Virus record (IMG/VR): IMGVR_UViG_3300028591_000009
Span: 32,001-96,000 of that record
Direction: 5' to 3' (one strand)
From: a virus
Taxonomy: Duplodnaviria; Caudoviricetes
DNA: 64,000 nt
A program made the position numbers and the translations under genes. Position 1 is the first letter of the stretch. Each line of letters starts with the position of its first letter. Of the stretch, positions 3,613 to 57,580 are shown piece after piece. A model generated the notes under the pieces. It was not told the DNA's origin and did not search any database. It was given only the letters and a program-made list of their open reading frames with translations.

Positions 3613-3614
3613 TT

Positions 3615-6600
3615 ATGGTATGTATTTATAATCCGTCTACGGAACAAATAAATGCATTAGATCGATATTCACGTATACTAGGCAGCGAAGAAGCTGCCTA
3701 CTACGTGTTATCGTAGAATAATGGATTTCCGCTAGACAAAACACCGAGCGATGAAGATTCTGACTTATATATAGATCTTGTCAATCATTATGGCAACGAA
3801 GAAGAAGCTATAAGAACAAAAGCAATGTTGTATACACAGCGATTCTTTGATGCAAATGGAGACTGGACTATGGGTTCGATGACTGATCCCTCGATGTATG
3901 ATGCAAAAGGAGAACCAAAGTCAAGTTTTGTACTTGGTTCAATGACTGGTGAAATGGAAAGTCTTATGAATCACCAGTTTTTGTTGGATACAGTTCATCC
4001 AACAATAGAATAGAGCGATCTTTCCAGAATTAGCCCTACAGATGATTTATCTGATTACGCTGTAGAATAGTTGATTAGGGAAAGCTACGATTAGTATACA
4101 GAACGACATAGAAACGAATATAAAAGAAACCATCCATCTGCCACAGATACCGAACTTGCCGAGTAGGAAGTTGTTGCTAGCAGATAGTGGTATAGTCGTA
4201 AGGTGTAGTCTATATTAACCGAACAAGTTAGATCTCTAGCTGAAGCTTTTGGATTGGTATATATACAAAAACCGAATGGTACTGTAGAATTACAAACAAG
4301 AGGAAGAAATGCTGTTACTGGTGTAAAAGAGCTAAGATTGAAGTTTTTAAATAATATAATAAACGATAGATTTGAAGACGAGTTAAGACAGTCTATATTA
4401 GGAAATGTAGTATTGTCTAAAGAGTTTACACTTAAAGTTCCAGGCGCAAAAGATTACATAAACGAAGCTGTTATACAACGTCGTAAAAGCGATAAGTTAA
4501 TAGCTGCTAGTACTCTTATAAACGTAAGCCTTACAGGTGGTACATCTACAACTGTAAATAAAGCATTAGCGTATCATTATATTACAATGTTTGTAGATAG
4601 CCCTCTAATTCAAGCTGGTTTGGAGGCCGTGAGAGATACTGACGACAGAAGCGAATTGTATCTTGTAAATAAGCTAGTTGATATAATAACAACTCCAGCC
4701 ATAGTTGGTGTAGAAAATTCTTCTTACGTTGGTAAAGCTTTTGAAAATGGAGTGTCTTATGAAACGTTTAAATCGTTTTGGGACGAATTCGACGATCTTA
4801 TTCATTAGGTTATAACAAACGGTGTAAAGTCTGAAGAAGCTAAAAAGAAGATATTATCTGTAGTTGCTGCAGCATTTATAACAAATGATCAATATAACTT
4901 GTGGAATCGCTCATTTGGTTATATGACAACAGGACCGATCGATTATTATGCGCAATGGTATTCTACAAAATATAAACCTTGGGGTGAATAGAATGAGGCT
5001 TAGTTATCAGAAATAGAAGCGTTCTTCAATTTATTGGAAACGTATTATCAAAATAAAATAAAAAGACAGGAACGAGATGCCAACGTATCTGCCGAACAAA
5101 CAACAAGAACCTCATTGGCTTTATAGTTCTTATAGTAGTCTGATAAAATGGATCCTACTTCGCAAGAAGAAGTTTTTAATAGTCTGTTTGAACTTGCATA
5201 TCAAGAAATTAGAGATGCCACGGAAGCTATTCAAAACCTCCATAATATAACTGGTATAAACGATAGATTTTCTAAGCTTGGTAGTATGTATAGCGATACA
5301 ATATCGTTTTATAATTATATACTAAATAATTAGCTAACTAAACATTTTGATCCAAGCAGTACAAAATTCCCAAGACAGATTGGTATGTATAATATGTTGT
5401 CTAATATGCTAAAAACATTAGATGGCATGTATAAAGAAAAACTGTATGATGTTTCATGTGAGTTTGTCGATAAATATATAGACAAACATATGGATATAAA
5501 TCAGGTAACTGCCGAAATGGTAAGGAACGCCAAAGAAAACGCACATAGAGAGCTTAGAAATAATGCTATATATGGAGATCTTAAGAATTACGAACTGTGG
5601 ATTACAATGAACTCTTTATCCAAAAGTTCGGTAGTAAGAATGATGCATGATTCTTTGCGCAGATTGAATTATAATCGAGATCAAGAAACATTATATGTGG
5701 CTCAATAGCTGCAAAAAGCTTTAAAAAAGGCATAGAAATCTTTGCTTAAAGGTGGAATTAAGTGGGCAGGATATAGGTTTGTACCAAAGAATTTCCAGAT
5801 GTTGTTTATGGAAAGATATGATGACGGTACACCTTCTGGAATGTTTACAAGAAAACGTCATTATGGTAATTTCTTTAAACGTAGAGCAGAGCTTGTAGTA
5901 CAGTTAGTAAGAGACATCGAGAAAGATATACAAAATAAAACTGGAAACATATATTTCAAGATGGAGCTTGATGACTACGGCAACCCTATATTTCCTGACG
6001 GAGAAGAGTGGGATGAATATTGGAGAAAATATTCACACGCTGTCAATGATTTTGAATGCAAAAATGGACATAAACGCTTCTTGCAAGAATATTACGACCT
6101 AAGAATAGATACTTTATCTAGAAAAGCAATTGCTCTCGAAGATAATATATAGAATTCTATAGATATAATCGAAAGTAGTGTGACAGAAGATGAGGTTTAT
6201 CGTCCAGACAGACTAACCAGAGAAGAGCGTGCTTAGTTATAGGATTTATATAGACAGCAAGATAATCTTGGAAATGAATATACTTTACTTGGAGAAAAGA
6301 AAAATGGAGAAGACCTTAAAATAGCTTAGGAAATAAAAGAGTTTAGAAGGCTTATTAAAGATCGCGTTGTTTATGAAACAGACGAAGATAAATATGAAGC
6401 CGCCAAAGCTAAAGTAGATCCGTCTGAGTTATCAGAATTTGAAAAATGGTCTACAAGTCTAGAAATAAATCCAAAATTTTGGGAAATTTATAAAATTCTC
6501 CAAAAAGAATACAGAGATCAATTTCCAGCTTATTTGAATCCTAATTTTGAACAAATAGAACGTCTTGGTAAAGAACGAAATGATATCGTAGATATAGTAA

Positions 6601-9600
6601 AACACAGACGCGGTTTTGCAATGCCAAATTTAAGAGATTTATCAGAAAGCTCTTGGAGAAGAGTAAAAGAGATAGATGAAGAAATGGATATTGCATACGA
6701 ACCGATTGTTGCGTATATGAAGTCAATGCCAAAAGGGTCTTTAATTCCTTCAGCATTCAAACGTATAGCAAGGTTAGATGATGTTATGGACAATAAAGAA
6801 CCAGACACAACAGCGTTTGACGCGTTAATGGATGAAGCAAGACAACTAGACGATGAAGAATCTTTAGCTTTAGGTGTTCGTGTAAACACACACGAAATGG
6901 AAGCTTTGGATAAATATACAAGAACCGTTGTTACTGATGGAGGAATAAAAACAGTTCCGTTAAGTATATTTTCATATATGAAACCTTCCGTTTTCCCAGA
7001 CGACGTAAAAGCCAGATTTGGAATAGGAGACGATTTTAAATATACGTTAATGCTTCCAAATAGAAAGTATAATAAGATGGTTGAACCAAGTTCTTCTAGA
7101 TATGCAGAACCATCTCTTGTTGATCCTGAATTTGATCCAAACGAAGATTCATATGTACAACCAACAGAGTTAAATCCAATATACGAAGTACTTGAAAAAG
7201 AGGCACCAAAAGAAGTATTTGAACTATATAAGTTATGCATGCAAATAAAACAAGAAGCTGACACATATATACCAATAAGTACAAAGCTTAAATATTTCTT
7301 ACCTCAAATGAGAGCATCTGATATGGCTGTAATAAGTAGAATGTTATCAAGAGGTTTATTGTCAACAACATAGGAAGTGTTTACAAATAAATTTATCGCC
7401 AACGAAACCGATGAAGAAATCATAGATGATTTTACTACACTTCCAGACGGAACTAGAGTAAACAGTGTTCCTTTAAAATTTGTTGATAAACTCAGAGATC
7501 CTTCACTATTATCTTCAGATGTTGTAGGTTCGCTAGTGCTTTATCAACACATGGCATCTAACTATTATTATAAACAATAGGTTGAGCAGTTATATCAAGC
7601 GTTATTATAGCAACTCGGTTAGGATTCTGATATTGTTACAGACGACGGAACCAGACATCTTGTACTTGGTAAAACAACAAACCAATATGCAAAATATAAA
7701 AACGTAATGGATAATTTGTTGTATGACCAAAAACAATTATGGGGAGAACGTGGAAGTTAGAAAATAACTGGTGTACAAAAAACTTTAATAAAAACCGCAA
7801 AATTTATTGCAAAACTTGGTACTATAACTGCATTGGGAAGAAATATTCTATCCTAGACTACCGGTTTCTTTGATGCTGCCGGAAAATTACATTCGTTTGC
7901 TTTTGCAGGAGACGCGTTTAATGTTAAGAATATAACAAGAGCTATTGCAATTTTTGATAAATATTTAATATCTGGAAGACTGTTTTTGGCTACTGGATAG
8001 ATATTACCAAACAATATAATAGCTGCGATAATGCAGAAGAATAATTTGAGCACTGGAATTCAATATAAATATCAGGGTGGATATAAAAATCGCTTTAGAA
8101 GATTTGTTGGAATGGAGCGCTCTGGTATGGGTGGATTTAGAGTTAGTGATTACGCTATAAATGCAGTTACAGCATTGTCTATATACGACAATTACAGACT
8201 ATTAGACGATTAGTTTTTACCAGAACGATCATTTAAAAATAAGCTGTATAAACTAGGATATTCCTCAAAAGAAATAGATAGAATGTACGATGACGCGTTA
8301 CCGTTATTGGACGCATATAATTATAAAGATAGTGTATTCTTCTTTGGAGATCCTGAGTTTGAACTTAAACAAGAGTATAAAGATATGCTCGGTGAAGCTG
8401 GTGTTACAAAACTAGAACAAGATATAGCAATAGCTGTATAGACTTGGACTCCAAAATTTAACGGAGCTGTTGCCGATGAAGATAAAGCTGTAATACAACA
8501 AAACATACTTGCTGGTTTTACAGTTGCTCTTCGTTCGTATCTCATTAATGAATTACAAACGCGTTTTGTAAACGGTGCAGATTTTTAGGATCCAAATATA
8601 TCTGAACACAAGCTTGAAATATTATAGGCTAGAAGAAAGGCTCTTGTTAAAGTATACAAACAGTCTTTAACTGATAATAAAAAGAAAACTAAACTACAAA
8701 AGCTTTTTGATAGACGTTCTGAAATAGAAGCAGAATTAATAAGTCTTAAGAGTTCTGGTGATATTAACAGTATAAATTGGGGTAATATAAAAGATTTAAT
8801 CGGATTATCTTCTATTGAGGTTGGGCTAGGATATGTTATAGGAAGTATAGCAGGCCCTGTTGGAGCATATGTTGGAGCTGGTCTTGGATTAGCTCAAGCG
8901 GCTGCAAACTTTTATACAAACCGTAAATAGTCTTCTGGAAGTAATGTTGGTATATTTATGTCTAAAGTTCGTAAATTAGAAGTCGAACTTAAAAGTATAA
9001 ATGCCTAGATTAGAGCGTATGAAGCTAGCGATAGCCGAGATTTGATTCTTATGGAAATACAATAGATAAACGAGCAAATTGTAAACATAAAAAATAAAAT
9101 CAATGAAAATCAAGGCTATTACGACTATGCGAGAAATATGTATACAAACGGATCTAATAGACTTGCCGGAAGATTAATTATGAATCTTGCTAGAAAAGCA
9201 CAGTTTTATATAAACACAATGCTTCCAGAAAGATTTAAGAGTTTATCTCCGAAATATAATCCAAAAATAACTCCAAATCAAATAAAAGGACTTAAACGTA
9301 TTGTTTATGATCTTGTACGTTTGATGTAGTGGTGGCTTATAACAACATTCTGTTTGTCATGGTATCGTTACGATGACGGTAGAGCTTTCTTAGGTGGAAA
9401 GTTCAACGAATAGACAACTTCTGTAATGCATAAAATGGATAGTGGTATAAAATCTGCCATAGACCCTGTAATGACATCTGATACATGGATTAAATTCTGG
9501 GAAGGTGTACACGATTCTTCGACAGATGGAGTTATTAGTCATATACCATTCTTTGATAAAGTTGCAGAAAACAAGTCTGACGCAATGCTTGGTTATACTA

Positions 9601-10106
9601 AAAAAGTTAGTAGAACTACAAAAGCAGTTACACGTAAAAAAATGGATGCTGTTCAAAAACAATTAGATTTTATAAAAATAGCAGCCGCTGCTTAGTCTCT
9701 CAAAAACTTTACAGAAGGTATAGCACCATACGACTACCAGACAATCAACGACCTTACAAACTCAGTTTCTGCAACAATAAATGTAATGACAAAATCTGTA
9801 GAGGCTGGACAAAATATGATTGTTGAAGGCCAACAAGGTAAACTAGAAGATCCTATGCAAGGTGGACCTTATACGGGATATTTTACCAGATCGGAATATG
9901 GTGCTGCACATTCTTGGTATAGGCCTTTTGGTTATCCTGCTTCTTATGAACAATCTACAGAAATAGGTTTGGTTAACCGCGTTAATTATCTAGGAAATAC
10001 TGGTCTTAATAGATTTGTAATACCCAAGAAAGAATCTGTTTAGAAGAAAGGAAATAAAAAGAAGAGCGGTAGAAAATCAAATCGTGGTGGACGTAAGTTA
10101 CGTTAA
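3615..10106 (+). CDS. Giant (~2160 aa) TAG-recoded virion/ejection protein with a hydrophobic Gly-rich segment
   Basis: ATG at 3615; track ORFs 3825 to 9786 share one frame, split by TAG; ends TAA 10104-10106; position matches the last giant cargo gene of crAss-like phages. Confidence 0.75.
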
Positions 10107-19867: not shown

Positions 19868-19948
19868 GGGACAGGTGCTGGATTCGAACCAACATTCTAC
19901 AGCTGACCTATAGCATTACTGCAGTACTACCATTATACTAACCCATCC
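19868..19948 (-). ncRNA. tRNA-like RNA with enlarged (14-16 nt) anticodon loop
   Basis: Acceptor GGATGGGT/ACCTGTCC, D arm GTAT-AATGGTA-GTAC, T arm GTTGG-TTCGAAT-CCAGC. Confidence 0.7.
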
Positions 19949-28313: not shown

Positions 28314-28727
28314 TCAAGAATCGTCTACAATTTCTACACTGTTTGGCGGGTTTGGCAAAGCGTGTAGGTATAGTCTATGAGTCACCCCACAGACATCACT
28401 TAAAGTCTGGTTAGGCTCAACCATATCAGGCGTATAATCCTGACTCACAAGGCTTGAAGTTACCTTCACTGGTGTTGTATAGTCTACATACTCAGGAATA
28501 CATACGAATGTTCCCTGTGTAGCCAACAACCCTTGTGTGGGGTACGCCTGGTTGAGCATGACCTGACTTTGTTCCTTCTTTTCGATTGCCTTATGAGCAA
28601 TCGTTCCTACTGTGAAAGCTAATGTATAGCTTACAAATAGGGCCCAGAATACTTTGTTGCTATTGTTGTATCTTGCGATACCCAATATAAACAGTGTTCC
28701 GAGAATGAACAATAAAGCTACTGTCAT
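28314..28727 (-). CDS. Two-TM membrane protein coupled to the ECF sigma gene
   Basis: Two hydrophobic segments; ATGA overlap with sigma stop. Confidence 0.65.
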   Translation of the reverse strand: MTVALLFILGTLFILGIARYNNSNKVFWALFVSYTLAFTVGTIAHKAIEKKEQSQVMLNQAYPTQGLLATQGTFVCIPEYVDYTTPVKVTSSLVSQDYTPDMVEPNQTLSDVCGVTHRLYLHALPNPPNSVEIVDDS

Positions 28728-29287
28728 GATTGTAATTTTAAACGTTGTCTTAACTTACGTCTAGTCCTGGAGAGCGTGGATTTTATAGTTCCTACTGGTA
28801 CTCTAGGATTAAACGTCTTACTAATCTCTTCTACGGTTAAATTATCTACATAAAATCTTTCAAAGATCTTACGAGTGACCTCTGGAAGTTTCTCAAACTC
28901 ACGAAGTAGTTCCTTATACGTCAGATGATTGACTAAGTCATCTTCAGCACAAGCCTGAATATTGGAGTTTAGTCGGTCCTCCTTTATATCAGCTACTTGT
29001 TTGTTCTTTATACTACGCAAATAATCAATTGCAGTTCGATTAGTCAATATTCGCAGCCAACCCCCAAAGGAGTCGTATGCTACAAATTTCGAGAGTTTAT
29101 CATGCACTTTAAGAAAGACAATATTTGCCACTTCTTTAGACTCGTCCATATCTTTTAGATACTGGAACAAAAGACTCTCTACAAAGCCTTTATACTTGTA
29201 GTAAAGTGCATTAAAAGCAAGCTCATCGCCTGCTTGCGCTTTTTTGATTAAGTCAACTTCAGTTGGGGTGATTCTAGGATTCTTCAT
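28724..29287 (-). CDS. ECF-type sigma-70 factor
   Basis: AQAGDELAFNALY, SFGGWLRILTNRTAIDYLR (region 2), LTVEEIS..VGTIKSTLSRTR (region 4). Confidence 0.9.
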   Translation of the reverse strand: MKNPRITPTEVDLIKKAQAGDELAFNALYYKYKGFVESLLFQYLKDMDESKEVANIVFLKVHDKLSKFVAYDSFGGWLRILTNRTAIDYLRSIKNKQVADIKEDRLNSNIQACAEDDLVNHLTYKELLREFEKLPEVTRKIFERFYVDNLTVEEISKTFNPRVPVGTIKSTLSRTRRKLRQRLKLQS

Positions 29288-29389
29288 AATCAAAAACAAT
29301 TTACTCGGTTTATTAAGGTGTCACTCCTGTACGCGGAACCGAAACGCTTAGTGGGCAGTGGGAATACCAATCCCGTTAGGTTTTCTGCC

Positions 29390-30362: not shown

Positions 30363-30364
30363 AG

Positions 30365-30438
30365 TGATTCCTGAACGATTCGAACGTTCGACCGACAGAT
30401 TAGAAATCTGTTGCTCTATCCAACTGAGCTAAGGAACC
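30365..30438 (-). tRNA. tRNA-Arg(TCT)
   Basis: ACAGA-TTTCTAA-TCTGT anticodon arm; canonical D and T arms. Confidence 0.9.
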
Positions 30439-30499
30439 TTTTGAGGCGTTTGTTTTTATAGTGGTGTCAAGCGAGCCTCTGTAAGCATGTCCACAACAT

Positions 30500-30549
30500 T
30501 GGAATGAGTGCAGGCTTCGAACCTGCCATAGTTCCGTTATTACTCATTC
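30500..30549 (-). ncRNA. Mini tRNA-like element (acceptor stem plus T arm only)
   Basis: GAATGAGT/ACTCATTC stem, 15-nt linker, GCAGG-TTCGAAG-CCTGC. Confidence 0.6.
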
Positions 30550-30860
30550 ACCGTTCACAGGCACTTAGGTAGCCTGTACACCGACTTCACGCTGCCTCCT
30601 GGAGACCCGTGTAGTCTGCAATGTTATAATTGCCAGTTAATTTTTATATCGAAGCGCTTAACGTCTTACTTTCCGCTGCCGTCAAAACCATTCAAGCCCA
30701 GATTAAAAGCTCCCGCCTCTATCCTCTGTACACCTTCTTCAGTGCCAGCGAGTACACAATTCAGGGAGCTTGGAGTGTTAATCAATAATACACGTGGACC
30801 TGGGCGGAATCGAACCGCCGTCCGAACAGCATATCCTAGGACACGCTAAGATTTCACTTG
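30550..30860 (-). ncRNA. ssrA: Permuted two-piece tmRNA: acceptor piece (~30860-30795) precedes coding piece (30699-~30550)
   Basis: GGGCTTG/CAGGTCC-A acceptor with G3-U70; GGCGG-TTCGATT-CCGCC T arm; GGTTTTGAC 5' motif; TAACT-GGC resume context; tag GNYNIADYTGLQEAA* at 30634-30587; outer boundaries approximate. Confidence 0.8.
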
Positions 30861-31338
30861 TGAACCTCACAATGATCAGTTGTAAGATTCGATTTAAGGC
30901 TATTTACAGCCTCTCTGACGCATTTTCTATACTCTTGTGGGTAGCTAATCCTCTGGAGTATATTAAACGCTTAGAATGGCTTTTTCATAAACCTTTATTT
31001 GTAGTACATTGCCCTGACTGACTCTCTGGTTCTTGCAGAATATACTCGCATTCTTGATATACAACGCGGTAGCTGCTTCCCTTAATGAAGGTTGACCGCT
31101 CACAGTAGCACCGGTTCATGACTCATACGTCGTAATTGTTGATCTAATGGCAGCATATTATTACACCGTGCTGACGGTGTTGATTTTCGCACGTGACTCA
31201 AAGGTTCTTGTGTATGTGTCAATTCACATAAAGCAGACTACTTCATCCATACCAGGCGCAATGCCATTTTTACATTTTTCGACTGCTTATACACCACTGA
31301 TTCTAGGATTCTGGGTGAGTGAAAATCATATAATGGGA

Positions 31339-45730: not shown

Positions 45731-45805
45731 TGTCCTATGGTGTAGTGGTAGCACAGGAGGCTCTAACCCTCCAGGTCCGGGTTCGATTCGATGGTAGGAC
45801 GACCA
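45731..45805 (+). tRNA. Amber suppressor tRNA (anticodon CTA), probably Gln
   Basis: TGTCCTA/TAGGACG acceptor plus ACCA; GGAGG-CTCTAAC-CCTCC arm; CTA at 45763-45765; T stem imperfect. Confidence 0.88.
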
Positions 45806-46373: not shown

Positions 46374-46489
46374 TAATAACGTTATAAAAGCCTGGGTAAC
46401 TTAGTACATAAGATGGCGAAGTTACAACGGAGAGGGAGCCTCAATAGGGCCCCCTCGAACCGTATATATAAACTACTAAATAGTGCTCT

Positions 46490-48349
46490 ATGGAACAACT
46501 TAATTATAGATTTTTAAATTATAAAAAATACAAGACCTTTGCTAAGGATTTAGCTGACGAGAAAATCCGCGAAGATGCGATTGTATTCGTACAAGACAAA
46601 CCTTGTATATGGGCACGTGGAAAAGAGTATGTTTGTGACGGACCGAATACAGCTGATATTCAAAGTGGAACGTTTACTTTTAAAAACGGTAAAGATGAGG
46701 TAATATTTTCTGCATCGTAGGAAGATGGAGTTATAACTCTTACGGATGGGAATGGTAATAGTATCGCTTAGGAATACGTATTGAAGGATTGGTACGACGG
46801 ACTTAAAATCAATCTTCGTACTAAGTTTGGCAGCGTTGATAAAAAGATTGAAGATGCTGAAGAGAATATAAGAGATCTTGGTACAGATAAACAAGATAAA
46901 CTTATCCCTGGCGAAAACATATCTATTACTAACAACAAAAACGGTAAGCCAATCATTAGTGCAATTATTGATACTAGTCTATATATAATGGTATCATCAT
47001 TGGACGATGTAGCTTATCCCAATCCAAATAAAATATATCTGCTTGAAACAACAGACCAAAACGGAGATACTATACACGAATAGTACAAATGGTCTAAGGA
47101 AGATCAAGAATGGATCCGCATAGGTACTGCTACTCCTGAAGTAGATATGAGTAAATATCTAGAACAGGAATATGAATACCTAGAGCAGAATTATCAACCT
47201 AAGGGTGAATATGCAGGTAAACAGTGGGTTTTAGAAACATTTGTAAAACAATCAAGTGTATATACTCCTACAGACGGTAGTGCAATCGGTGGAGGATCTG
47301 ACGACGAAGGGTCTTCTGGTGTTGTAATACCTTCTGGAAATAGCAATATAACGGTAGATAAGACTTTAAGTACTTTATCAGCAAACCCTGTAGAAAATAG
47401 AACTATAACAATAGCGTTATAGGGCAAAGTAGACAATAACACTCTACAGCAATACGCGAAGAAGTCAGAATTGTCTGGTAAAGTAGATGCTACTGAATTA
47501 GAAAATTATGTAACAAACATACAACATATACAAGACTTAGCTACAAAGCAGAATGTTTTGACAGCTGGTAGTGGTATATCTATAGAAGATGATACAATTA
47601 GTGTTGATGTAGATACTAATCCTATACTTATTGTATCAGAATTACCAAGCAACCCAAATCCAGATAAGATCTACCTACTTGAGACAGTTCAAGATGGTGA
47701 GACTGTTTATATTGAACACAGATATATAAACAACGAATGGGTTGAGTTTGGCAGAAAAGAAATCACTATAGATCTTGCTCCTTATGCTACTAAGTCAGAA
47801 GTTAGTTCTACACTGAACAACTATCTAACTAAAGCAGAAGCTTCATAGAACTATCAGACTATCATAGATGATTATTCTACTAAAGATGAGCTTGAAGAAG
47901 TTGATCAAAAGTTTGATGACTATGCTACAAGCGACGATCTTTCTGAAGCATTACAATATGTAGCTAACGAATATCAAAAAAGAGGTAATTATGTATATGC
48001 AGGACAAGTTTCTGCTGCGTTAAATGCTTTATAGCAGGTAATAGACCAGAAGTATGTATTAAAGAAAGATGTATATAGACCAAACGAATCAGGTTGGTCT
48101 TCTTCAAATCCTACAGCTATTGATGTATAGGGTACTGAAGGAAATGCATCAGATTCTGGATACAGTTCTAACATGGTTACTCTTACTACCGAACAATATC
48201 AACAGTTGGTAGACAAAGGTCTTGTAAACGAATCAACATATTATTTCACTTACGAAGGTGAAGTAGAAACAGATTGGACATTTGGAGGAACATTTCCAGT
48301 TATCCTTGGAGGTAGCGGTATAGGTGAGTTCCCAATAACATTAACATAA
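46490..48349 (+). CDS. TAG-recoded tail fibre-like protein (~619 aa) with internal duplication
   Basis: Track ORFs 46490, 46781, 47147, 47471 in one frame; repeat KQ..L..G..ISI...PNP.KIYLLET twice; TAA at 48347-48349. Confidence 0.75.
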
Positions 48350-48354
48350 TAACT

Positions 48355-49359
48355 ATGAATTTAAATCATAATACAAACAAACAAACAGGCGATCAGCTTA
48401 CAGCAGCAGAATGGAATAATCTTGCTGCTGATGTAAATGAATTGGGAGCTGGTGGTGCAGGAAATAACGACACACATGTCTATTTTGATAGCACAAACAA
48501 ACACAACCTTAACCTTGTTACTACGGACTCCGATCAATACATCGACGAGAATAATAAGGTAAAGGGCGGCAAGATTAACATCGAACCGTATAGCGATCTT
48601 CAAATCAAACCTGGTGACGACATTACATTGTATTCTCATCACAGAGAAGATCCAGAAGAACTGGCTGTAAAGGTTCTTAATGGTGCAGAGGTTTCTGCTA
48701 CAGATCAGGCTGAGATCGATGAATACCCTGTAGATCTTCAATTAAACGCATCAAACGTAATTCTTACAACCAAAGACAAGGCTATTACTATTGCCGAAAA
48801 GAATAAGGCTCGTGCAGCCGAAGGAAAAGACAATACTGCAGATAAAGCCAACATTATGAATGTAGAAGTTAAGACTGGTACAAAAGCTAAGAAGGCTACT
48901 GCATCTAATGGTCAATACGGTTATTTGAAGGTTCGCGCAAACGCTATCGATCTTCGTTGTGAAGACCACGGTGGCATTGCTATTCAACCTAAAGGTTATG
49001 ATAGTGATGGCAATATGAACAAGATTAAGTTCGAACATGGCGGTGGCGACGGCCTCGAGTTTGGTACATTCAACACCGAAAAGAGTTCATTGTTCACAGA
49101 CGAATATCGTTTCAACAAGAACGGCGAGATTTATCTTGCTACTCGTCAGACCGAAGCTTCTGGTAAGACAGATGATACCGGTATCTTTGACAACACTCCT
49201 AGCGGCAAGACAGCTACAAACGCACTGAAGTATGTAAAGCAAGCCGACGATTTCTATGATGTTATTGACAGCAACGATCCACATTGCACATGGGGTGATA
49301 TCGTAACATATATTTCTTGGGCTAAAGCAAACAACCAGGGACCCTGGGCAAATCTTTAA
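48355..49359 (+). CDS. Putative tail/virion protein
   Basis: 334 aa, no TAG; KQTGDQLTAAEWN N-terminal motif typical of fibre proteins. Confidence 0.7.
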   Translation: MNLNHNTNKQTGDQLTAAEWNNLAADVNELGAGGAGNNDTHVYFDSTNKHNLNLVTTDSDQYIDENNKVKGGKINIEPYSDLQIKPGDDITLYSHHREDPEELAVKVLNGAEVSATDQAEIDEYPVDLQLNASNVILTTKDKAITIAEKNKARAAEGKDNTADKANIMNVEVKTGTKAKKATASNGQYGYLKVRANAIDLRCEDHGGIAIQPKGYDSDGNMNKIKFEHGGGDGLEFGTFNTEKSSLFTDEYRFNKNGEIYLATRQTEASGKTDDTGIFDNTPSGKTATNALKYVKQADDFYDVIDSNDPHCTWGDIVTYISWAKANNQGPWANL

Positions 49360-49365
49360 TAACTT

Positions 49366-49563
49366 ATGATACACGTAAACAATCATAATATAGTTGGTGT
49401 TTATAGTGGTAATAGGGATATTGTAAAAGTATACAGCGGACTACGCTTAGTCTGGAGTAAGATAATAGACGTTATAACAGAAACATTAAGTTGTTACGCC
49501 AATGGGTATTGGATAGATGAAAACCCTTGGACTGACGAAACACCTTGGTTTAAAGAACAATAA
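49366..49563 (+). CDS. Small tail-associated protein
   Basis: IVKVYSGLRLVW..CYANGYWIDENPW. Confidence 0.65.
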   Translation: MIHVNNHNIVGVYSGNRDIVKVYSGLRLVWSKIIDVITETLSCYANGYWIDENPWTDETPWFKEQ

Positions 49564-49565
49564 AT

Positions 49566-52500
49566 ATGGATTTATATACAGAAAAAATCAATGAATTTAC
49601 CGATTGGGTTTCGGGAGAGAACAGTCTAACTAACGGTAATGATACAAATAATCTTCCGGTATCCGGCGCAAGAATCAGAGAACTTCTTCAAGATCATTTG
49701 AAAGAACCAATATATCTATGGAGAGACACTACTGAGAATTTATACAGGATTTTCAGTAGTGCCGATGCATGGAGAATTTGGGATTCTGATAGAACAAGAT
49801 ATGCTGATCTAGAACTTGCAAGCTTCGTAGCTCCTTCGGAATATGGCATAGAGGTAACGTTTCCAGAAAACGGTACTATACTATACGCTCGTGAAGGTGT
49901 TCATGATGAGAATACTGTCGTATCTTATAGTTGGAATGTTGTTGATGGTAAAGGCAACGAACTTGACGAAAACATGTATGTAACATACAGTATAGTAGAG
50001 AACGGTGCTTATGTACCTACAACAAAAACTCCATCTGAAAAAAATGTAAGAGAAGATTTATATGATTATCTTTCTACTGGTTTGAATACAGTAGAGATTT
50101 CGTTTAAAGGCGCAGATAGTGGAGCTGAAACAAAGAAGACAATTACAGTTCACGTACTTAAACTAAATGTTAGTACAGACTTTAATTATACAACAGTTAG
50201 AGAAAATTTAAAACCTCTTAACTTTTCATTGTATGCAGACAGAAACGTATAGGGTCCTTTGAGTTTTAAAACTCGCAGATACTATTACGGTTCTGGTAAA
50301 TTCAACGAAGCTGCACAAGAATAGTATGAAAATACATTTAATATTAGAACTGCGGACGAAAACAACTTGACTCCTAGTGCAGAATATCAAGAATCTGGTT
50401 CTGAAGATGCTACGCGATTAAAAGCTGGTTTACATGCGGTATAGGTTATTGGTAGAATGATCCTAAATAATAATCAGTTTAATAGCAATCTTTTATACTA
50501 TTTGTTTGGCGTAGGTTTTCAACCAGGCAGCGAGACAATGTATCATGGTATAGCGGCAGAGTGTAACTTTAACGGCAAAATAGATTTTATTGGTCCTACA
50601 GAGTTTATGCTCGAGGCCACGCAATATGAATAGTTTACTCTAAATTGGGGTTATATTAGTTATATTGGTGGAATGAATAACAGCATTTCGTGGTATATGC
50701 GAGACGTGAACAATGAGGATCCTGAGGATGTAAATGAAACATTCATTACAACTGTAGAATGTTCGTCAAACGTAGCTGCTAGTCCTCTTAAATACATGCC
50801 CGTAGAATATACCGATTCTGGAAGAAGTACATTTCTTGTAGCAAAAATTTCTGGAACGGATATAATTGAACTTCCGATATATATCAAAGAAAGCGAACTT
50901 GGTATTAGTGAAACTGGAGGTGCCGATTTAAAACTCAAACTTTCTGCATACGGAAGACTCAACGAAAATACAAACGTTTCTACATGGGAATATAATACAT
51001 ATTCTACAACGTTTACCAATGTAAAATGGAATCCTGCAAGCGGATGGTATGATAATAGTTTACGATTATCTGGAATCGATTCTACAGCAGTAATCAATTA
51101 CAACCCGTTTGGAGATATAGATGCTACAAACAAAGGTGTTACTGTAGAGGTTGAGTTTGAATCTGAATATGTTTCTTCTACAGACGAGGAGCTTATTAGA
51201 CTAGGTAGTTCGTTAAATAGCGAACCGCACATTAGTATATTTGCTAACAAAGCTTAGTTGTTTATACAAGGATCTCCTATTATTACTACTAACTATAAAG
51301 CTAACGAACGCGTAAAACTTGCGTTTATTGTTGAGCCTAGAAATAATGTAAGCGAAGAGATTAAGAACGTAATCTTTATTGTAAACAATGGTATATGCGA
51401 AAGAGCAGCTGGTTGGAAAGATTATGAACCTGCGGTATTTTCCGCAAATACTGGAAATATTACTATAGGAGGGTGTAATTCTGGAATACGTGTATATAAT
51501 ATAAGATGTTATACCAAAGCTATTACGATTTTAAACGCTTATAATAATTTTGTATACGATAGTGATGACAAGGCGTCTATTGTAGGACGAAATAATATTT
51601 ACGCTAACAACGAAATAAATCTTAAGAAATGTCAAGATAAAATCGATGTAATTATTTTAAAAGGTCCTTTGAATAAAGTATTAAGCCGCAATACTACAAA
51701 AGATGGTTCTAACAGCGAATGTGATATACAACGCATATGTGCTAAAGATCGCTCCAAAAACTTTACTGTAACTCACGGACGTATTCGTAAACATGGTCAG
51801 TCTACGTTGAACTATCCTCTTACTTCTTATAAGTTGTGGACATGGTCTTCTGTAGATGAAGTAAGACCTAGCTTAATAATTGATGCTTCTGAAGATATCC
51901 CGTTCTCTAAGAATAGATACCAGATGAAGAACGATGCAATACCTTCAAACAAGTTTGTATTGCAAGCCAACTATGCAGACTCATCTGGTACACACAATGG
52001 TGGTTTCTTAAGACTTATTTAGGATATCTGGTATAATAGCCAGATTGATGGAGAATATAAGCTTAGGACATAGCCGTAGTTGTTTAGCTCAAATCAGACA
52101 ATCTCTGTATAGACCGGAGATGAGATGACTACTGCTGAATCTAATCTCTTTAGAGGTATGAATGCGCAGGGTAAATAGTGGGGAGATTACTTTGGACTTA
52201 CTCCGTTCCCGTATGTATTAAGAACGGCGCCAGATTCATTCCCATGTTTAGTATTCTACCAAAACGACGATGCTGGAGATACAGCCGCACACTTCTTAGG
52301 ACAATATGTATTTATGGATGATAAGAAGTCTGATTATACATATGGACAGAGAAGTATATACAAGGTAGACAACGTGCAGTCTGGTACCAACAATGCCAAC
52401 GACCCGTTCTGTGTTAAGAGAGATCCTAAGACGGGAGAATCTATTTGGGATGAAAAGAAGGGTACTAAGATTTGGGACAACGATAAGGTTCTTCGTATTG

Positions 52501-55500
52501 AATGTCTTTCTGTAAACAGCACGCTTGCAGACTTCCGTGGTACTACTGCTGATAATAGTGGTCGTCAATTCGATAATGTTATACTTGGTTCAAATGAAGA
52601 TAATACAAGTATTGGTTGGGAAGAAGACTTTGAATTGGTATACCCAGAGAAAGAGGAAATTACCACATCTAAACAATTTGACGCCAATAAGTTTGTAGCT
52701 ACTGTACAACCATTTACGGAATGGTTGCGTTGGATCATTGGTACTTATCATAACCAAGCGCAGTTTGAAGCTACTGCAGCACAACACCTAGACCTTTATA
52801 AGATGGCTGCTTATTACATCTTTGTATTGAGATTTGGTCTTGTGGACTCATTGGAACGTAATGCTCAGATTAAGACGTACGATGGTAAACACTTCCATTA
52901 TGAGCCTTGGGATATGGATATCGCATTAGGTAACCGAAACACTGGCGGTATTGCATTTAATCCTCCTATCGACCGTAATACGATGATGGATGCTACTACA
53001 GGAGCTATTTCTGGTAGATCTGTTATTGATACAAACAATGACGATGTTCCCGATACTACAGTATCTAACTGGCTGTTCGATGCTCTTGAAGCATGGCCAT
53101 ATTGGATGAATACTATTGTTCCGAAGGTAGCTGATGCTATGTATAAGCAGGGTCTTACGTATACAAACGTAATTAACATGCTTGATGGACAGTATCAGGA
53201 TGCCTGGTGCGAAACAATCTATAATGAGACTGGTAACTTCAAATATGTTGTAAACCGTCAAAACGTAGATAGCAATGGCAATATTCTATCTGGATATGAT
53301 GATAGCTGGTTGTCATGGTTACAAGGAGCTCGTACAACTCACCGTCACTGGTGGTTGAAGACCTCTATGGACTACTACGATGCTAAGTGGGGTGTAGGCG
53401 AATTTATGGAGAAGAACATGTACATCGGTTGTGAAATGCACAATGTACAAGGATCTATAAACATTGTTCCTACTTCTTCTACATATTTCATGTTTGAACG
53501 TGAAGCAACTAAGTTTGGTCCATTTGCGGCAACTGTAGACGATCCTTTAGAGTTTGATGTATCTTCTATTAACTCTGGTGCGAAGGTTCCGTTTAAAATG
53601 TACGGCGCCAACTTTATCAAAGAGATTGATATTAGCGACGTAGCAAGCGGCCTTCAAGTATTTTCTATTGCCAACGCATTCTCATCTGAAGTAGGACCTG
53701 TGATAACCAAAGTAAATATTGGAGTTAAGGTTACTTAGCAAGATGCAAATACATATACAGGCCAAGAAAATAATAAAGAAATTTAGATTGCTGCCGGTAG
53801 TTCATTGAATGCTATAGAAGAATTAAATATTCGTGGACAACGTAGTTCAGGTCTACTCGGTACTGGTCGTATACAAGGTCTTGATTTTATAGCTAACACA
53901 AAGACTATTAAGAAGATCTATGCTATGGGTGCCGGTATGAATACACTCAATAGCTGTATAGGTACAGACTTTGATACTCTTGAACTTCCAGATACCATTT
54001 CTTCTATTACATTTAATAGTACTACTTGGGATCCAAATAAATTATCGTTCTGGCATACTACATCTGGTGGTTATGTAACTAGAACTTACACTGATTATAA
54101 AGTAGACGAACAAGGCGAGGTAGTTTATGAGAACGGTGAACCTGTAATGGAGGAGTACACTGTACAGGAAATGAATCCTGCTACATATACAAAGTATGAT
54201 CTCGACGATGCTCAAATAGGAGTATCTATTCCTAGAGGATTGTTAGCGGTTCGTATGACAGGTACTACTGGTAAAAATGCTTGTGCTAGACAGTTTGTTG
54301 TAGACTGGATCGCTTCTATTATCAAATGGGGTACCGAAGATTGGGATAACCAAGAAAACGGTGCAGATGAATACGCATCCCTCGATGAATATTTAACACA
54401 TCTATTCAATGAGAGAACTCTTTCTGTAGAGAATATATATTGGAACAATTCAGCAATTCCTGGTTTGAGTTATGAACAACTTACTTGGATTGCTAAATTT
54501 AATAATATAGATTATTCTCAACAATATACAACTCATCCAAACATAACTAATTTTTCTAGAGGTTATGTAGTACTTACAGATACTAATGCTCTTACTGGTA
54601 TTCAAACATCTTATTTGTCTACATGGTTTGGTGAAGGTGTATTTGTATTAAACAGTAGTGGTCTTGTAATCGATCAATAGTTAGAATATACAACCATATC
54701 TGTAGGTCCTGCCGCATATGTAGAAAATAACGAAATATATATAAAAGAAGGTACATCTGCAAGAATACAGGCGACGAAGTTTAATCTTAGACCATCATTA
54801 TCTTCTACAGAATTTTAGCTTTCTGCTCCAGATTCACAGCTATCTGCATCATCTTATAGAGGAACTAGTATTGTTTCTAATAGGATAGGCGTAGGAGATG
54901 AAGTTATTTATTATCTAAAAGCCGATCCATATGTTACTGGATAGGATTATGATGTTAGACTTGCAAGTGGTTCTGGTAGTGTTATTATCCATGTAAAAGC
55001 TTTAGATTATCCAGAACAAATATTCTTAAGCATACAAGGTAATAAAAAGTTAGATGATAGTGGTTCGAATACAGATTTCTACAAATATGATAAAGGCTTT
55101 GATACATTTGTATTAGGAAACTAGGCTGGTCCATTCTTAGTTGGTGTACAATTTAAAGAAGGCGATAGATGGGTGAATACTCCATCTAACGATACAATTA
55201 AACCTTCGTATGCTAAATTTAAAGTATATAAAAATGATGTACTTTGTTCTAGATTTGAGTACGGAATAAATTATACAGACTTTATACAAGCAGGACTAAC
55301 GACAACTACTTTTGTAGATCAAGCAGACACATCTCTATCTTACATTACTGGATATAAACCTACATCAGACATATACAAATATTTTATCCCACTGAATGTA
55401 GAAAGAACTGTTCAGCAAGAACCGTTAAAATATAGAGTTGATTGTGAGATTAAACTTGGTGGTATGATTACTACGCTTAGCGCCAACATTATACTAATTA

Positions 55501-56513
55501 AGGATTTTGTTGTTGCGCCAGAAGGAAATCCATTGTGGGGTCTTATAAATAACTCGTATGTTCAACAAAAAGGATCTAATTACACACGAGGCGGATTCTA
55601 TAGAAGTATTACTGATTTTATTGTAGGCGATATAAGTGTTGACGGATAGTATAATTTAAATGGTACTTGGACAACAGTAGGATCTAGTATACAAAACACA
55701 ATATCAAGCGGAAGTGGTACTGCTACTAGTATGTTTAAGTACTTACCTGGTATACACGGTATTAAACTTGATGGATCTACAATGGCTTCTACTGCAGAAG
55801 GTATAACCAATATCGATTTGTCTAACGTTCAAGATCTTGTTACGTTCTCTATATAGGATTGTACAAATCTTACTGGTACTATAGATCTATCTTCATTTGC
55901 TAACCTTGAAGAAGTTGATGCTAGCGGAACTACAGTTAATGTATTGATTCCTACACGATCAAAAATAACTAAATATGAATTAGGAGCTCCAACATCAATC
56001 AGCATTATTAATCCTACTGTATTATAGCCTAGTGGAGTTAAAGTAGATTCATGGGGTAATATTAATTCATTGGTATTAAAAAATATACCTGGCAATAATA
56101 CTTATGCAATGTTTGAGCAAATTATGCAAACATACATGTTTGGAGGAGGTCTTATTTGGGGTAAACGCATAAACATTGAAGGGGAAACAGGAGCTGACGC
56201 TTTTGTAGATGATACTAACGAGTGGTGTGTGTCGACATATATTGATATACAAGGTATTTCTTCAATATCAGTAAATGCACCTCATTATACAGGTATACTA
56301 TATTTAGATTCACATTATAAAAAAATTGAGAGAGAAAGATTCTTTGGTAGCGATGATAGTAATGTAGAAACCACAATTACACCTCCGCAAGGAACATATT
56401 ATATGATATGGGGAATTTTATCTAATACAAGCACGCCATCCGTATACTCCAAGAATGTATGTTTTAAAAATGCTAATACAGGACGCACTTTGTTTGAATA
56501 TAAGCCCTCTTAA
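49566..56513 (+). CDS. Giant (~2315 aa) TAG-recoded tail protein with LamG-like, CotH kinase-like and LRR-like regions
   Basis: Track ORFs 49566 to 56070 share one frame, split by TAG; HGQSTLNYP..YK, LQANYADSSGTHN, DSLERN, WDMDIALG motifs; ends TAA. Confidence 0.78.
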
Positions 56514-56541
56514 TTTATACAATAAAGATATTTAATTAGTC

Positions 56542-57441
56542 ATGACATCGTTAAGAATTGAATAGGGATCTGCTGTAGAAAACGTTTCAGAATCTCTTAT
56601 AAAGAAATTGTATGATATAGCTGTTGAAGTACCGCTGCCTGGTGCAGGAGAAGAAGATGCCGCATATCTTTCTGGTCACATAGCAGTAGAGTATACTTAT
56701 AAGTCATATGTTGATTATTTGGCAGGTACTATTGGAGAAGGTTCTTCTGGAGTTGTAACTACAATTAGACAAAACGCAGGTGGAAGATTTGGAGATTTAA
56801 GAATAGATGTAACACGTGGATATTGGATTTTGTTTGAAGATGAAGCTGTAGAAAATGTATTAAAAACAATGTTGCATAAGTCTGGATTAGTTAGTAGTGA
56901 TTTAGATACAATTACCTCATTAACTAGAAGCAGCGGATTTAAAAATAATACTTCCATCACTTCTTTAAACGATCTTTAGTATTTAACTTATTGTACTGTT
57001 ATAGATGAAGAAACGTTTTGGGGCGCAAGTAACTGTGTTACTATGAAACTTCCTCCTATGGTAAGAAGGATTGAAGATTTAAGAAATATGTCAAAAGTTG
57101 AAGGATTAAGAATTCCATCTACATGCACCGGAAATACAGATGGCAATTTGTTTATTAGAATGTTTGACAGCTTGAATCTTTTGGTTGTGGATGGCACTAT
57201 AGACGAACTTAACATGGATGAAGAAAGTGGAAGGTTTGCTGCTCCTACTAATATAGTAATAAACGGCCTTGTAAATAAAATTGTAGTACAAGGAAAAAAT
57301 TATACTACGTGGGGAGGAACAATTTGGGTAGATGATGTTGCTACATATAAAGCTAAAAGCGGTTTTTCTTCATACAAGAGTAATTTGAGTCCTATATCTA
57401 GTATGCCAGCTGCATTATAGAATGCTGTTGCACAATTATAA
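56542..57441 (+). CDS. TAG-recoded BspA/LRR_5-like tail protein (299 aa)
   Basis: ATG 56542; joins ORFs 56608 and 57043; FKNNTSITSLNDLQYLT..IDEETFWG. Confidence 0.65.
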
Positions 57442-57475
57442 TCAATAACACAACCTCAAGTGTCTAAAATGAGGA

Positions 57476-57517
57476 TGCGTAGAATGGTTAATCTTGGTTC
57501 GATTCCAAGCTGCGCAC
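57476..57517 (+). ncRNA. Mini tRNA-like element (acceptor stem plus T arm, 10-nt linker)
   Basis: TGCGTAG/CTGCGCA, AATGGTTAAT, CTTGG-TTCGATT-CCAAG. Confidence 0.65.
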
Positions 57518-57580
57518 AACGCATTAAGCGTTTTACTAATTAACTAACTTTTATTCACTAATTAAACTAAAATTAAAACT

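What the first reader, a model, noticed from the sequence alone, without database searches (positions are those of the whole stretch)
30550..30860. Phage-encoded, circularly permuted, minimal two-piece tmRNA
Seen on the - strand: the tmRNA 3' module (TGCTGTTCGGAC-GGCGG-TTCGATT-CCGCC-CAGGTCC-A, ending 30795) comes before the 5' module (GGGCTTGAATGGTTTTGACGGCA, starting 30699). They are separated by a ~95-nt spacer that folds on itself (AAGCTCCC/GGGAGCTT). The halves form a 7-bp acceptor stem with the G3-U70 alanine determinant, plus a GACGGCA/TGCTGTT helix. TAACT-GGC opens the tag GNYNIADYTGLQEAA-TGA, and the tag end is enclosed by GACTACAC/GTGAAGTC. Known: permuted tmRNAs occur in Alphaproteobacteria, some Betaproteobacteria and some cyanobacteria; Bacteroidota tags resume on Gly and end in AA. 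Inference: this is an independent permutation in a phage, with little room left for the usual pseudoknots (coding piece ~150 nt). It may rescue ribosomes stalled during the TAG code switch or after host RNA attack.
Basis: partly seen in the sequence, partly recalled or inferred. Interest (0 to 1): 0.92.

Follow-up and report, generated by a model that had tools for sequence, protein, structure and literature searches.

The report
Two-piece tmRNA gene in crAss-like phage
This rumen crAss-like phage really does carry a back-to-front (two-piece) gene for tmRNA, the RNA that frees stalled ribosomes. Standard tools find it and related phage genomes already annotate it, so it is a sound but largely known feature. 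One point is under-described: it looks like a separate, host-derived lineage of such genes.

Summary
ARAGORN calls a permuted tmRNA at 30496-30886 (-) with tag GNYNIADYTGLQEAA. Rfam's tmRNA_permuted model (RF04321) scores 64.5 bits against a cut-off of 47.

I collected about 50 distinct relatives from ~100-kb crAss-like contigs.
- The acceptor stem, T arm and P2a helix covary strongly: 94% of cells paired against 75% in shuffles, and G3-U70 does not vary.
- The tag frame shows only third-position, synonymous change in a conserved Asp-Tyr-Thr motif.
- No upstream 5' end could make a one-piece gene.

The find is not new as a kind. RefSeq annotates tmRNA at the syntenic place in cr131_1, cr272_1 and cr273_1. 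A 2022 supplement lists at least 11 crAssphage genomes, these three included, as carrying 'Permuted' tmRNA. This scan already holds many notes on phage two-piece tmRNAs from other DNA.

What I found described nowhere is that the family:
- fails the alpha, beta and cyano lineage models;
- shares Bacteroidia-type signatures (GGUUUUGAC, bulged-U P2a, GGC resume codon);
- has no room for PK1;
- ends in a tRNA-like element.

An independent permutation of a host-type tmRNA is plausible (about 0.55) but not proven. The function in infection is untested.

The parts
30862..30890 (-). Upstream hairpin: 11-bp stem with a CUGAUCA loop. It may be the 5' part of the acceptor piece or a flanking element.
   Evidence: Present in the minimum-energy fold of the precursor. 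The loop CTGATCA is kept, with differing stems, in the window's sub-clade by eye. Its membership in the mature RNA was not tested.
30795..30847 (-). Acceptor piece core. P2c strand AGCG (30847-30844), P2b strand TGTC (30843-30840), internal loop, P2a strand GCTG-T-TCG (30830-30823), GAC, T arm 30819-30803, acceptor 3' strand CAGGTCC (30802-30796), discriminator A30795. CCA is not encoded.
   Evidence: ARAGORN 3' tRNA domain, Rfam alignment, covariation of the T arm, acceptor and P2a. P2b and P2c covary by eye within the sub-clade.
30700..30794 (-). Intervening sequence of 95 nt, predicted to be removed. It folds into a hairpin closed by AAGCUCCC/GGGAGCUU.
   Evidence: In relatives its length runs from 15 to 181 nt and its sequence is not conserved, as expected for a discarded spacer.
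30653..30699 (-). 5' tRNA-like half of the coding piece. Acceptor 5' strand GGGCTTG (30699-30693), D-loop analogue AATGGTTTTGA (30692-30682), P2a strand CGGCAGC (30681-30675), loop GGAAAGTAA, P2b strand GACG (30665-30662), conserved bulge TTAAG (30661-30657), P2c strand CGCT (30656-30653).
   Evidence: ARAGORN 5' tRNA domain. Acceptor pairs compensate in ten different sequence combinations. P2a covaries.
30587..30652 (-). AU-rich linker of 18 nt (30652-30635) followed by the tag reading frame: resume codon GGC at 30634-30632, 15 codons GNYNIADYTGLQEAA, stop TGA at 30589-30587.
   Evidence: There are 19 tag variants of 12-20 residues, all in frame and all ending in Ala plus TGA or TAA. The Asp-Tyr-Thr codons vary only at third positions in 48 unique genes. 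A small GCAAU/AUUGC hairpin at the start of the tag covaries.
30583..30616 (-). Hairpin enclosing the end of the tag: GACUACAC/GUGAAGUC outer stem, GUCU-CCAGG-AGGC inner stem-loop.
   Evidence: One compensatory change (C-G to U-A) in cr272_1 and cr273_1. The other sub-clade has a similar helix in a shifted position.
30557..30577 (-). Hairpin after the tag: ACAGGC stem with a conserved 9-nt loop UACCUAAGU.
   Evidence: RNAalifold consensus with 3-5 changes on both sides per pair. A loop of similar sequence is kept in both sub-clades.
30502..30549 (-). tRNA-like minihelix at the 3' end: 8-bp acceptor-like stem GAATGAGT/ACTCATTC, 15-nt linker, T arm GCAGG-TTCGAAG-CCTGC. By inference it is an RNase P cleavage signal that sets the 3' end of the coding piece.
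   Evidence: An acceptor-plus-T-arm element starts about 36-41 nt after the stop codon in roughly 30 of 48 relatives. Its T arm covaries. ARAGORN calls some copies 'tRNA-???' with aberrant anticodon loops.
30364..30438 (-). tRNA-Arg (TCT), immediately downstream on the same strand and probably co-transcribed.

Best explanation
This is a functional, circularly permuted (two-piece) tmRNA gene of a 106.6-kb crAss-like phage.

Shown here:
- The gene order is 3' tRNA-like half, 95-nt spacer, 5' tRNA-like half, tag frame.
- The two halves can form a 7-bp acceptor stem with G3-U70, a T arm and a three-part P2 helix. All of these are kept by compensatory change across about 50 relatives.
- The tag frame is under selection at the peptide level.
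- The phage has no SmpB gene.

Inferred:
- The gene is transcribed with the standard-code genes and the tRNA genes of the - strand.
- Host RNase P cuts 5' of G30699 and 5' of the tRNA-like element at 30549.
- The 3' end after A30795 is trimmed and CCA is added by the host enzyme.
- The roughly 55-95-nt acceptor piece and the roughly 150-nt coding piece stay together through the acceptor stem and P2.
- Host AlaRS charges it with alanine through G3-U70.
- With host SmpB it enters stalled ribosomes and appends Ala-GNYNIADYTGLQEAA.

Its likely role is to keep ribosome rescue running in the infected Bacteroidales cell, or to change its output. The phage tag differs from the host's GENNYALAA and carries a conserved Asp-Tyr-Thr motif. 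The gene most likely descends from a Bacteroidia-type one-piece tmRNA.
For: - ARAGORN calls a permuted tmRNA.
- Rfam RF04321 scores 64.5 bits, cut-off 47.
- Relatives at the syntenic place (tmRNA, tRNAs, two small ORFs, ECF sigma factor) are annotated as tmRNA in RefSeq.
- Ten different compensating acceptor-stem combinations occur, with G3-U70 kept.
- Formal pair counts: 94.4% paired against 75.2% in shuffles, 0 of 500 shuffles reaching the observed covariation. The result also holds on an alignment not fitted to the structure.
- No upstream acceptor partner exists.
- Only third codon positions vary in the Asp-Tyr-Thr motif of 48 unique genes. All 19 tag variants stay in frame and end in Ala plus a stop.
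- No SmpB in the complete genome with terminal repeats.
- Bacteroidia-type signatures are shared.
Against: - No expression, processing, charging or tagging data exist for any member.
- The Rfam score is modest. Five of 20 relatives tested, plus the three RefSeq relatives, fall below the cut-off.
- No pseudoknot was found, and PK1 supports function in model tmRNAs.
- The tag ends in QEAA rather than the usual ALAA, so it may not be a degradation signal.
- The proposed processing at the 3' tRNA-like element is inference only.
Confidence: 0.88

Rival explanations
1. The gene is a two-piece tmRNA, but it was imported from one of the known permuted lineages (alpha, beta or cyano, perhaps through other phages). 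It later adapted to Bacteroidales hosts, so it is not an independent permutation.
For: - Two-piece tmRNAs are already common in aquatic phages (PMC9004378).
- The general model built from alpha, beta and cyano sequences does hit the window.
- For the window's sub-clade, the nearest neighbours of the 61-nt tRNA-like domain are a mixture of groups at 0.75-0.82 identity.
- Adaptation to host SmpB, AlaRS and RNase P could produce the Bacteroidia-like signatures by convergence.
Against: - The lineage models fail: beta_tmRNA scores 32 bits against a cut-off of 84, and none of 20 relatives passes alpha, beta or cyano. Nine of 12 other IMG/VR permuted tmRNAs do pass one.
- The GGC-Gly resume codon, GGUUUUGAC, GUUUGGAC and the bulged-U P2a are all shared with Bacteroidia one-piece genes.
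- TLDs in the larger sub-clade (B), for which the larger part of the rows have such a neighbour, are nearest to Gly-type Bacteroidota at 0.82-0.89 identity.
Confidence: 0.3
2. The RNA is mainly a decoy or re-targeting device rather than a rescuer. It would compete with host tmRNA for SmpB and ribosomes, or attach a tag that is not a host degradation signal, so that phage products from truncated mRNAs are spared or host quality control is disabled.
For: - The phage tag differs from the host's GENNYALAA. In the window it ends in QEAA and carries a conserved internal Asp-Tyr-Thr motif absent from host tags.
- The phage encodes no SmpB, so it must draw on the host pool.
- A tmRNA-like RNA of phage DS6A that lacks a tag frame is reported to inhibit endogenous tmRNA (PMC11915505).
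Against: - The tag frame is intact and under peptide-level selection in all 48 unique genes, which a pure decoy would not need.
- Most family tags end in LVA, LAA or IAA, which resemble ordinary degradation tags.
Confidence: 0.15
3. There is no tmRNA here: it is a chance juxtaposition of a tRNA fragment and a short ORF, or an ordinary one-piece tmRNA with a miscalled 5' end.
For: ARAGORN's permuted mode gives false positives (one obvious case in L227). The Rfam score is only 17 bits above the cut-off.
Against: Covariation across about 50 relatives in three helices. Codon-periodic conservation of the tag. Conserved synteny. No upstream 7/7 acceptor partner within 800 nt.
Confidence: 0.02

Closest known systems
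tmRNA genes annotated in crAss-like phages cr131_1, cr272_1 and cr273_1 (RefSeq NC_055902-NC_055904; Suoliviridae, Oafivirinae). They are listed, with at least eight other crAssphage genomes, as 'Permuted' in Table S1 of Buchholz et al. 2022 (PMC9004378).
   Same: Same family and same genomic place (tmRNA, tRNAs, small ORFs, ECF sigma factor). ARAGORN calls them permuted with tags GNINVVDYTGLQEAA and GNYNVVDYTHVA. About 81-83% identity over the coding core.
   Different: A different phage: only 15-27% of the 421-nt query aligns by blastn. The acceptor, T-arm and P2 sequences differ through compensatory changes. The window's gene passes the Rfam cut-off, while those three do not.
Two-piece tmRNAs of Alphaproteobacteria, a betaproteobacterial lineage and cyanobacteria (Keiler et al. 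2000; Sharkady & Williams 2004; Rfam RF01849, RF01850, RF01851, merged in RF04321; PMC11915505).
   Same: Same permuted gene order, tRNA-like domain, G3-U70, P2 helix joining the two pieces, and a discarded intervening sequence.
   Different: - It fails the lineage models (beta 32 bits against 84).
- It resumes on Gly (GGC), not Ala.
- The D-loop analogue is UUUGAC, not UUCGAC.
- CCA is not encoded.
- There is no room for PK1.
- The coding piece of about 150 nt is, from my memory of the Caulobacter RNA (about 210 nt), shorter.
Phage-encoded two-piece tmRNAs of aquatic myophages (OM43 phage Melnitz and pelagimyophages; PMC9004378).
   Same: A phage-borne permuted ssrA gene without a phage smpB, sitting among tRNA genes.
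   Different: Those are alphaproteobacterial in type and Ala-resuming, and Melnitz has a glutamine riboswitch. This one belongs to a gut or rumen crAss-like phage, has Bacteroidia-type signatures and shows no riboswitch match.
One-piece tmRNA of class Bacteroidia, the presumed host type (about 395 nt, tag GENNYALAA and variants).
   Same: Shared features: GGUUUUGAC D-loop analogue, GUUUGGAC junction, P2a with a bulged U, GGC resume codon after UAAMY, 'GN...' tags in some orders, CCA usually not encoded.
   Different: - The host gene is in standard order and carries the pseudoknot-rich middle.
- The phage gene is permuted, roughly 205-250 nt when mature, has no room for PK1, and I found no pseudoknot after the tag.
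- The phage tag carries a different, longer peptide with a conserved Asp-Tyr-Thr motif.

Membership tests
tmRNA (SsrA) | tRNA-like domain: 7-bp acceptor stem with G3-U70, T arm with a GTTCGA-type loop, unpaired discriminator A, no anticodon arm. | tested here: met
   G3-U70 is kept in every relative whose stem could be placed. T arm 100% paired, acceptor 90-94% paired, with changes on both sides.
tmRNA (SsrA) | Short internal reading frame that starts without an initiation codon and ends in hydrophobic residues plus a stop codon. | tested here: met
   Tag GNYNIADYTGLQEAA followed by TGA. Nineteen in-frame variants, all ending in Ala. Only third-position variation in the conserved Asp-Tyr-Thr codons.
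tmRNA (SsrA) | Pseudoknots (PK1 before the tag, PK2-PK4 after it). These are typical but not universal. | tested here: not met
   Only 18 AU-rich nt lie between P2c and the resume codon. After the tag I found two simple hairpins. No exhaustive pseudoknot search was run.
tmRNA (SsrA) | Works with SmpB, is charged with alanine, and tags non-stop products. | not testable with these tools
   No SmpB gene in the phage, so host SmpB would be needed. No biochemical data exist.
Permuted (two-piece) tmRNA, Rfam RF04321 | Gene order 3' half, intervening sequence, 5' half; score at or above the gathering cut-off. | tested here: met
   64.5 bits against 47. ARAGORN flags it as 'Permuted'. No upstream partner for a one-piece form.
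Permuted (two-piece) tmRNA, Rfam RF04321 | Mature RNA exists as two base-paired pieces. | not testable with these tools
   Inferred from the variable, unconserved 15-181-nt spacer. No RNA end data.
Alpha, beta or cyano two-piece lineages (RF01849, RF01850, RF01851) | Score at or above the lineage model's gathering cut-off. | tested here: not met
   The best is beta_tmRNA at 32 bits against 84. None of 20 relatives passes, while 9 of 12 other IMG/VR permuted tmRNAs do.
Bacteroidia-type tmRNA (by descent) | GGUUUUGAC D-loop analogue, GUUUGGAC junction with bulged-U P2a, GGC resume codon. | tested here: inconclusive
   The signatures are shared. The whole-domain nearest-neighbour test favours Bacteroidia for sub-clade B, in about 14 of its 21 rows, and is ambiguous for the window's sub-clade. 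No supported tree was built.

The most novel reading that the evidence does not exclude
The crAss-like phage tmRNAs form a further, independent lineage of two-piece tmRNA. On this reading a Bacteroidia-type one-piece gene was permuted and stripped of its pseudoknots inside a phage lineage. It acquired a phage-specific tag with a conserved Asp-Tyr-Thr motif and a tRNA-like 3' processing element. That would be a natural minimal tmRNA showing which parts trans-translation really needs.
Probability: 0.5. Interest if true: 0.5.

Novelty: new member of a known kind. Interest (0 to 1): 0.33.

Why it matters
As a gene call it adds little. ARAGORN and Rfam find it, close relatives are annotated, and phage two-piece tmRNAs are documented.

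Its value is comparative. The family is common in abundant gut and rumen crAss-like phages. It looks host-derived rather than alpha, beta or cyano in type, has no room for PK1, and is much smaller than the host's roughly 395-nt tmRNA. It is therefore a natural experiment on the minimal requirements for trans-translation and on how often circular permutation of this RNA has arisen.

The conserved Asp-Tyr-Thr tag motif suggests that tagged proteins meet a fate set by the phage. The gene's place in a genome that recodes TAG makes a testable link between suppressor-driven read-through and the demand for ribosome rescue.

Tried and rejected
1. **One-piece gene with an upstream 5' end.** Rejected: no 7/7 acceptor partner within 800 nt upstream.
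Replaced by the covariation-supported GCUG(U)UCG/CGGCAGC.
3. **My first guess of a CTTAGCG/CGTTAAG helix.** Dropped in favour of P2b plus P2c with a conserved UUAAG bulge, which relatives support.
4. **A pseudoknot between the conserved loop UACCUAAGU and the upstream CUUAG.** The partner is not conserved outside the closest relatives, so I dropped it.
5. **TAG avoidance in the tag stop as evidence for adaptation to recoding.** Uninformative. The count is 0 of 48 in the phage family, but also 0 of 96 and 0 of 14 in host-type genes.
6. **Nearest-neighbour identity of the 61-nt tRNA-like domain as a test of origin.** Noisy. It is clear for most, not all, of one sub-clade.
7. **Comparator genomes through the 'Limnohabitans' MAG handle.** It turned out to share its phylum sample with the Bacteroides handle. 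This gave 0 of 121 genomes with a permuted hit over the cut-off, but no proteobacterial comparators.
8. **Sigma-70 promoter scan.** Nothing on the - strand, and the consensus does not suit Bacteroidales anyway.
9. **The tmRNA database paper's supplement.** It holds no per-phage listing.

Full report
**What is there.** On the - strand the window reads, 5' to 3':
- a P2 strand, GAC and a T arm (GGCGG-TTCGATT-CCGCC, 30819-30803);
- the acceptor 3' strand CAGGTCC (30802-30796) and discriminator A30795;
- 95 nt of spacer (30794-30700);
- GGGCTTG (30699-30693), a D-loop analogue AATGGTTTTGA and the other P2 strands;
- 18 AU-rich nucleotides;
- a frame from GGC (30634) through 15 codons to TGA (30589-30587).

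Rfam's tmRNA_permuted model RF04321 scores 64.5 bits against a gathering score of 47. The spacer's AAGCTCCC/GGGAGCTT helix is in its minimum-energy fold, though the fold is only 1.7 sd better than shuffles. No GG-initiated heptamer within 800 nt upstream pairs 7/7 with CAGGTCC. The only full partner, followed by the D-loop analogue, is the downstream one at 30699. The gene cannot be read as an ordinary one-piece tmRNA.

**The genome.** The window lies in a complete 106,602-bp virus record with direct terminal repeats. The nearest records are crAss-like phages of Suoliviridae/Oafivirinae. With TAG read as sense, the + strand genes open into frames of 2319, 2166, 1203, 932 and 625 codons holding 8-38 in-frame TAGs, whereas seven of the eight longest - strand frames hold none and one holds a single TAG. 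A tRNA with anticodon CTA sits at 45731-45805. The tmRNA gene lies in the standard-code - strand block. It is followed by tRNA-Arg(TCT), two small ORFs and an ECF-type sigma factor at 28724-29299, an order shared with cr131_1 and cr273_1. The genome has no SmpB gene.

**Relatives and covariation.** Two pattern scans of IMG/VR, followed by ARAGORN, gave 63 permuted calls. These are 50 distinct sequences, mostly on contigs of about 100 kb.
- *Acceptor stem.* Anchoring on the T arm, the acceptor 3' strand appears in ten versions, each matched by a compensating 5' strand. Examples are CAGGTCC/GGGCTTG, CACGTCC/GGGCGTG, ATGGTCC/GGGCCAT, ATGCTCC/GGGGCAT, CATCTCC/GGGGATG and GCGGTCC/GGGCCGC. The third pair stays G-U throughout.
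- *Spacer.* It varies from 15 to 181 nt and is not conserved.
- *Pair counts, unfitted alignment.* On a plain MAFFT alignment of 38 genes, the 19 pairs of acceptor, T arm and P2a are 89.6% paired against 73.3 +/- 0.9% in shuffles. There are 122 cells changed on both sides against 37 +/- 5, and 44-56% pairing when partners are slid.
- *Pair counts, model-fitted alignment.* After re-alignment with a covariance model built from that alignment, 49 distinct genes give 94.4% against 75.2%, and 173 against 46 (0 of 500 shuffles reach this).
P2b (UGUC/GACG) and P2c (AGCG/CGCU), separated by a conserved UUAAG bulge, also change in step within the window's sub-clade, judged by eye.

**The tag is translated.** Among 48 unique genes there are 19 tag variants of 12-20 residues. 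All are in frame and all end in Ala followed by TGA (27) or TAA (21). All contain Asp-Tyr-Thr. In those nine nucleotides only the three third positions vary, always synonymously. That is the signature of selection on a peptide. Part of the same stretch is also one strand of a hairpin, so RNA-level constraint acts on it too.

**Reduced architecture.**
- Only 18 nt separate P2c from the resume codon, so the usual PK1 cannot form.
- After the stop come the closing strand of the tag hairpin and a second hairpin (30577-30557) with a conserved 9-nt loop. That hairpin covaries.
- At 30549-30502 there is an acceptor-like stem plus T arm with only a 15-nt linker. An element of this kind starts about 36-41 nt after the stop in roughly 30 of 48 relatives. 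Its linker ranges from 11 to 91 nt, so some copies are of tRNA size. Some copies are called 'tRNA-???' with aberrant anticodon loops, one is accepted by Rfam as a tRNA, and the T arm covaries.
- I infer that RNase P cleavage at this element sets the 3' end of a coding piece of about 150 nt.
- The host-type gene is about 395 nt.

**Is it known?** Yes, as a kind and as a family.
- RefSeq annotates 'transfer-messenger RNA, SsrA' at the homologous place in cr131_1, cr272_1 and cr273_1, and ARAGORN calls all three permuted.
- Buchholz et al. 2022 (PMC9004378) describe the two-piece tmRNA of phage Melnitz. They count 53 ARAGORN-called two-piece genes in phage genomes, and their Table S1 lists at least 11 crAssphage genomes, these three included, as 'Permuted'.
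- The 2025 tmRNA database paper that produced RF04321 scanned RefSeq viruses and holds 79 phage sequences. It sorts permuted genes only into alpha, beta and cyano types.
- In the papers I could search, no main text discusses crAss-like phage tmRNAs.
- This scan already holds 1749 notes on phage permuted tmRNAs in at least 1102 genomes, all on other DNA, one of them in a putative Bacteroidota jumbo phage.

**A separate lineage?** Several results say the family is not simply alpha, beta or cyano in type.
- The window scores 32 bits on beta_tmRNA (cut-off 84), with nothing better.
- Of 20 relatives, 15 pass RF04321 at only 48.6-72 bits, 5 fall below, and none passes a lineage model. The three RefSeq relatives also fall below.
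- Twelve other permuted tmRNAs from IMG/VR score 89-153 bits on RF04321, and nine of them pass the alpha or beta model.
Those are one-piece tmRNAs of about 395 nt with tags such as GENNYALAA. They have the same GGUUUUGAC, GUUUGGAC junction and bulged-U P2a.
- In an unselected sample of 56 tmRNAs from the phylum of a Bacteroides genome, UUUGAC occurs in 9 of 14 Gly-resuming genes and 2 of 42 others.
- The phage family resumes on GGC in 45 of 48 genes. Other phage permuted genes resume on Ala in 18 of 22.
- None of 121 genomes from that phylum has a permuted tmRNA over the cut-off.

Against this, the comparable domain is only about 61 nt. Nearest-neighbour identity favours Gly-type Bacteroidota in the larger part of the bigger sub-clade (best match in about 14 of its 21 rows, 0.82-0.89). 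It is ambiguous for the window's own sub-clade (0.75-0.82, mixed groups). Convergence on host factors cannot be excluded. I put an independent, host-derived permutation at about 0.55.

**Function.** The mechanism given under the best explanation rests on established tmRNA biology and was not tested here. The absence of TAG as a tag stop says nothing, because host-type genes avoid it too.

**Verdict.** It is a member of an already annotated and tabulated family. What remains modestly open is its descent, its reduced structure and its tag.

Noticed in passing
window 30502-30549 (-): A tRNA-like minihelix (acceptor-like stem plus T arm, 15-nt linker, no D or anticodon arm) sits directly after the tmRNA coding piece. 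Relatives carry an equivalent element at the same distance from the stop, some nearly tRNA-sized with aberrant anticodon loops.
   Followed up: partly
window 30862-30890 (-): A hairpin with an 11-bp stem and a palindromic loop CUGAUCA lies just upstream of the acceptor piece. The loop is kept with differing stems in the window's sub-clade. Whether it belongs to the mature tmRNA is unknown.
   Followed up: no
window 1-10103 and 46472-63441 (+), compared with about 2500-39900 (-): TAG is read as sense only in the + strand genes, with 8-38 in-frame TAGs in frames of 625-2319 codons. Seven of the eight longest - strand frames have none and one has a single TAG. A tRNA with anticodon CTA at 45731-45805 lies about 670 nt upstream of the 46472-63441 block of + strand genes.
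   Followed up: partly
L146:1090-1258, L211:5251-5419, L137:1162-1329 and other relatives: In the other sub-clade, a RAGATH-9 RNA lies directly upstream of the tmRNA gene, or within about 160 nt of it. Hatchet ribozymes, RAGATH-20, RAGATH-7 and RAGATH-1 hammerheads are scattered nearby. The window itself has no such Rfam hit.
   Followed up: no
L037, L067, L091, L429, L478 (IMG/VR contigs of about 97-134 kb): Other large phage contigs carry standard one-piece tmRNAs with long tags such as AEELSSFTFEDAMAFVGADYAVAA and a GGATTTGATTGC-type 5' end resembling some permuted members. Table S1 of PMC9004378 also lists crAssphage cr106_1 as 'linear'. These could bear on where the permutation arose.
   Followed up: no
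L070:3893-4457 (-): A different permuted tmRNA on a 16-kb viral contig. It has a Bacteroidia-like 5' half (GGGCCTGACTTGGATTTGACAG), a 181-nt spacer and a 25-residue tag, GENNANDCKVIKMIPYGQEEMRKAA. It matches the crAss family model only partially (31 bits).
   Followed up: no
window 19869-19947 (-): Rfam calls a tRNA here (42 bits) that ARAGORN does not report.
   Followed up: no
PMC11915505, Supplementary Table S2: Forty-eight tmRNAs in Bacteroidota assemblies are classed as permuted (18 alpha, 23 beta, 7 cyano). They might be crAss-like phage contigs binned with their hosts.
   Followed up: no
window 28724-29299 (-): An ECF-type sigma factor gene (Sigma70_r2 and r4) lies about 1.3 kb downstream of the tmRNA, as in cr131_1 and cr273_1.
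   Followed up: partly
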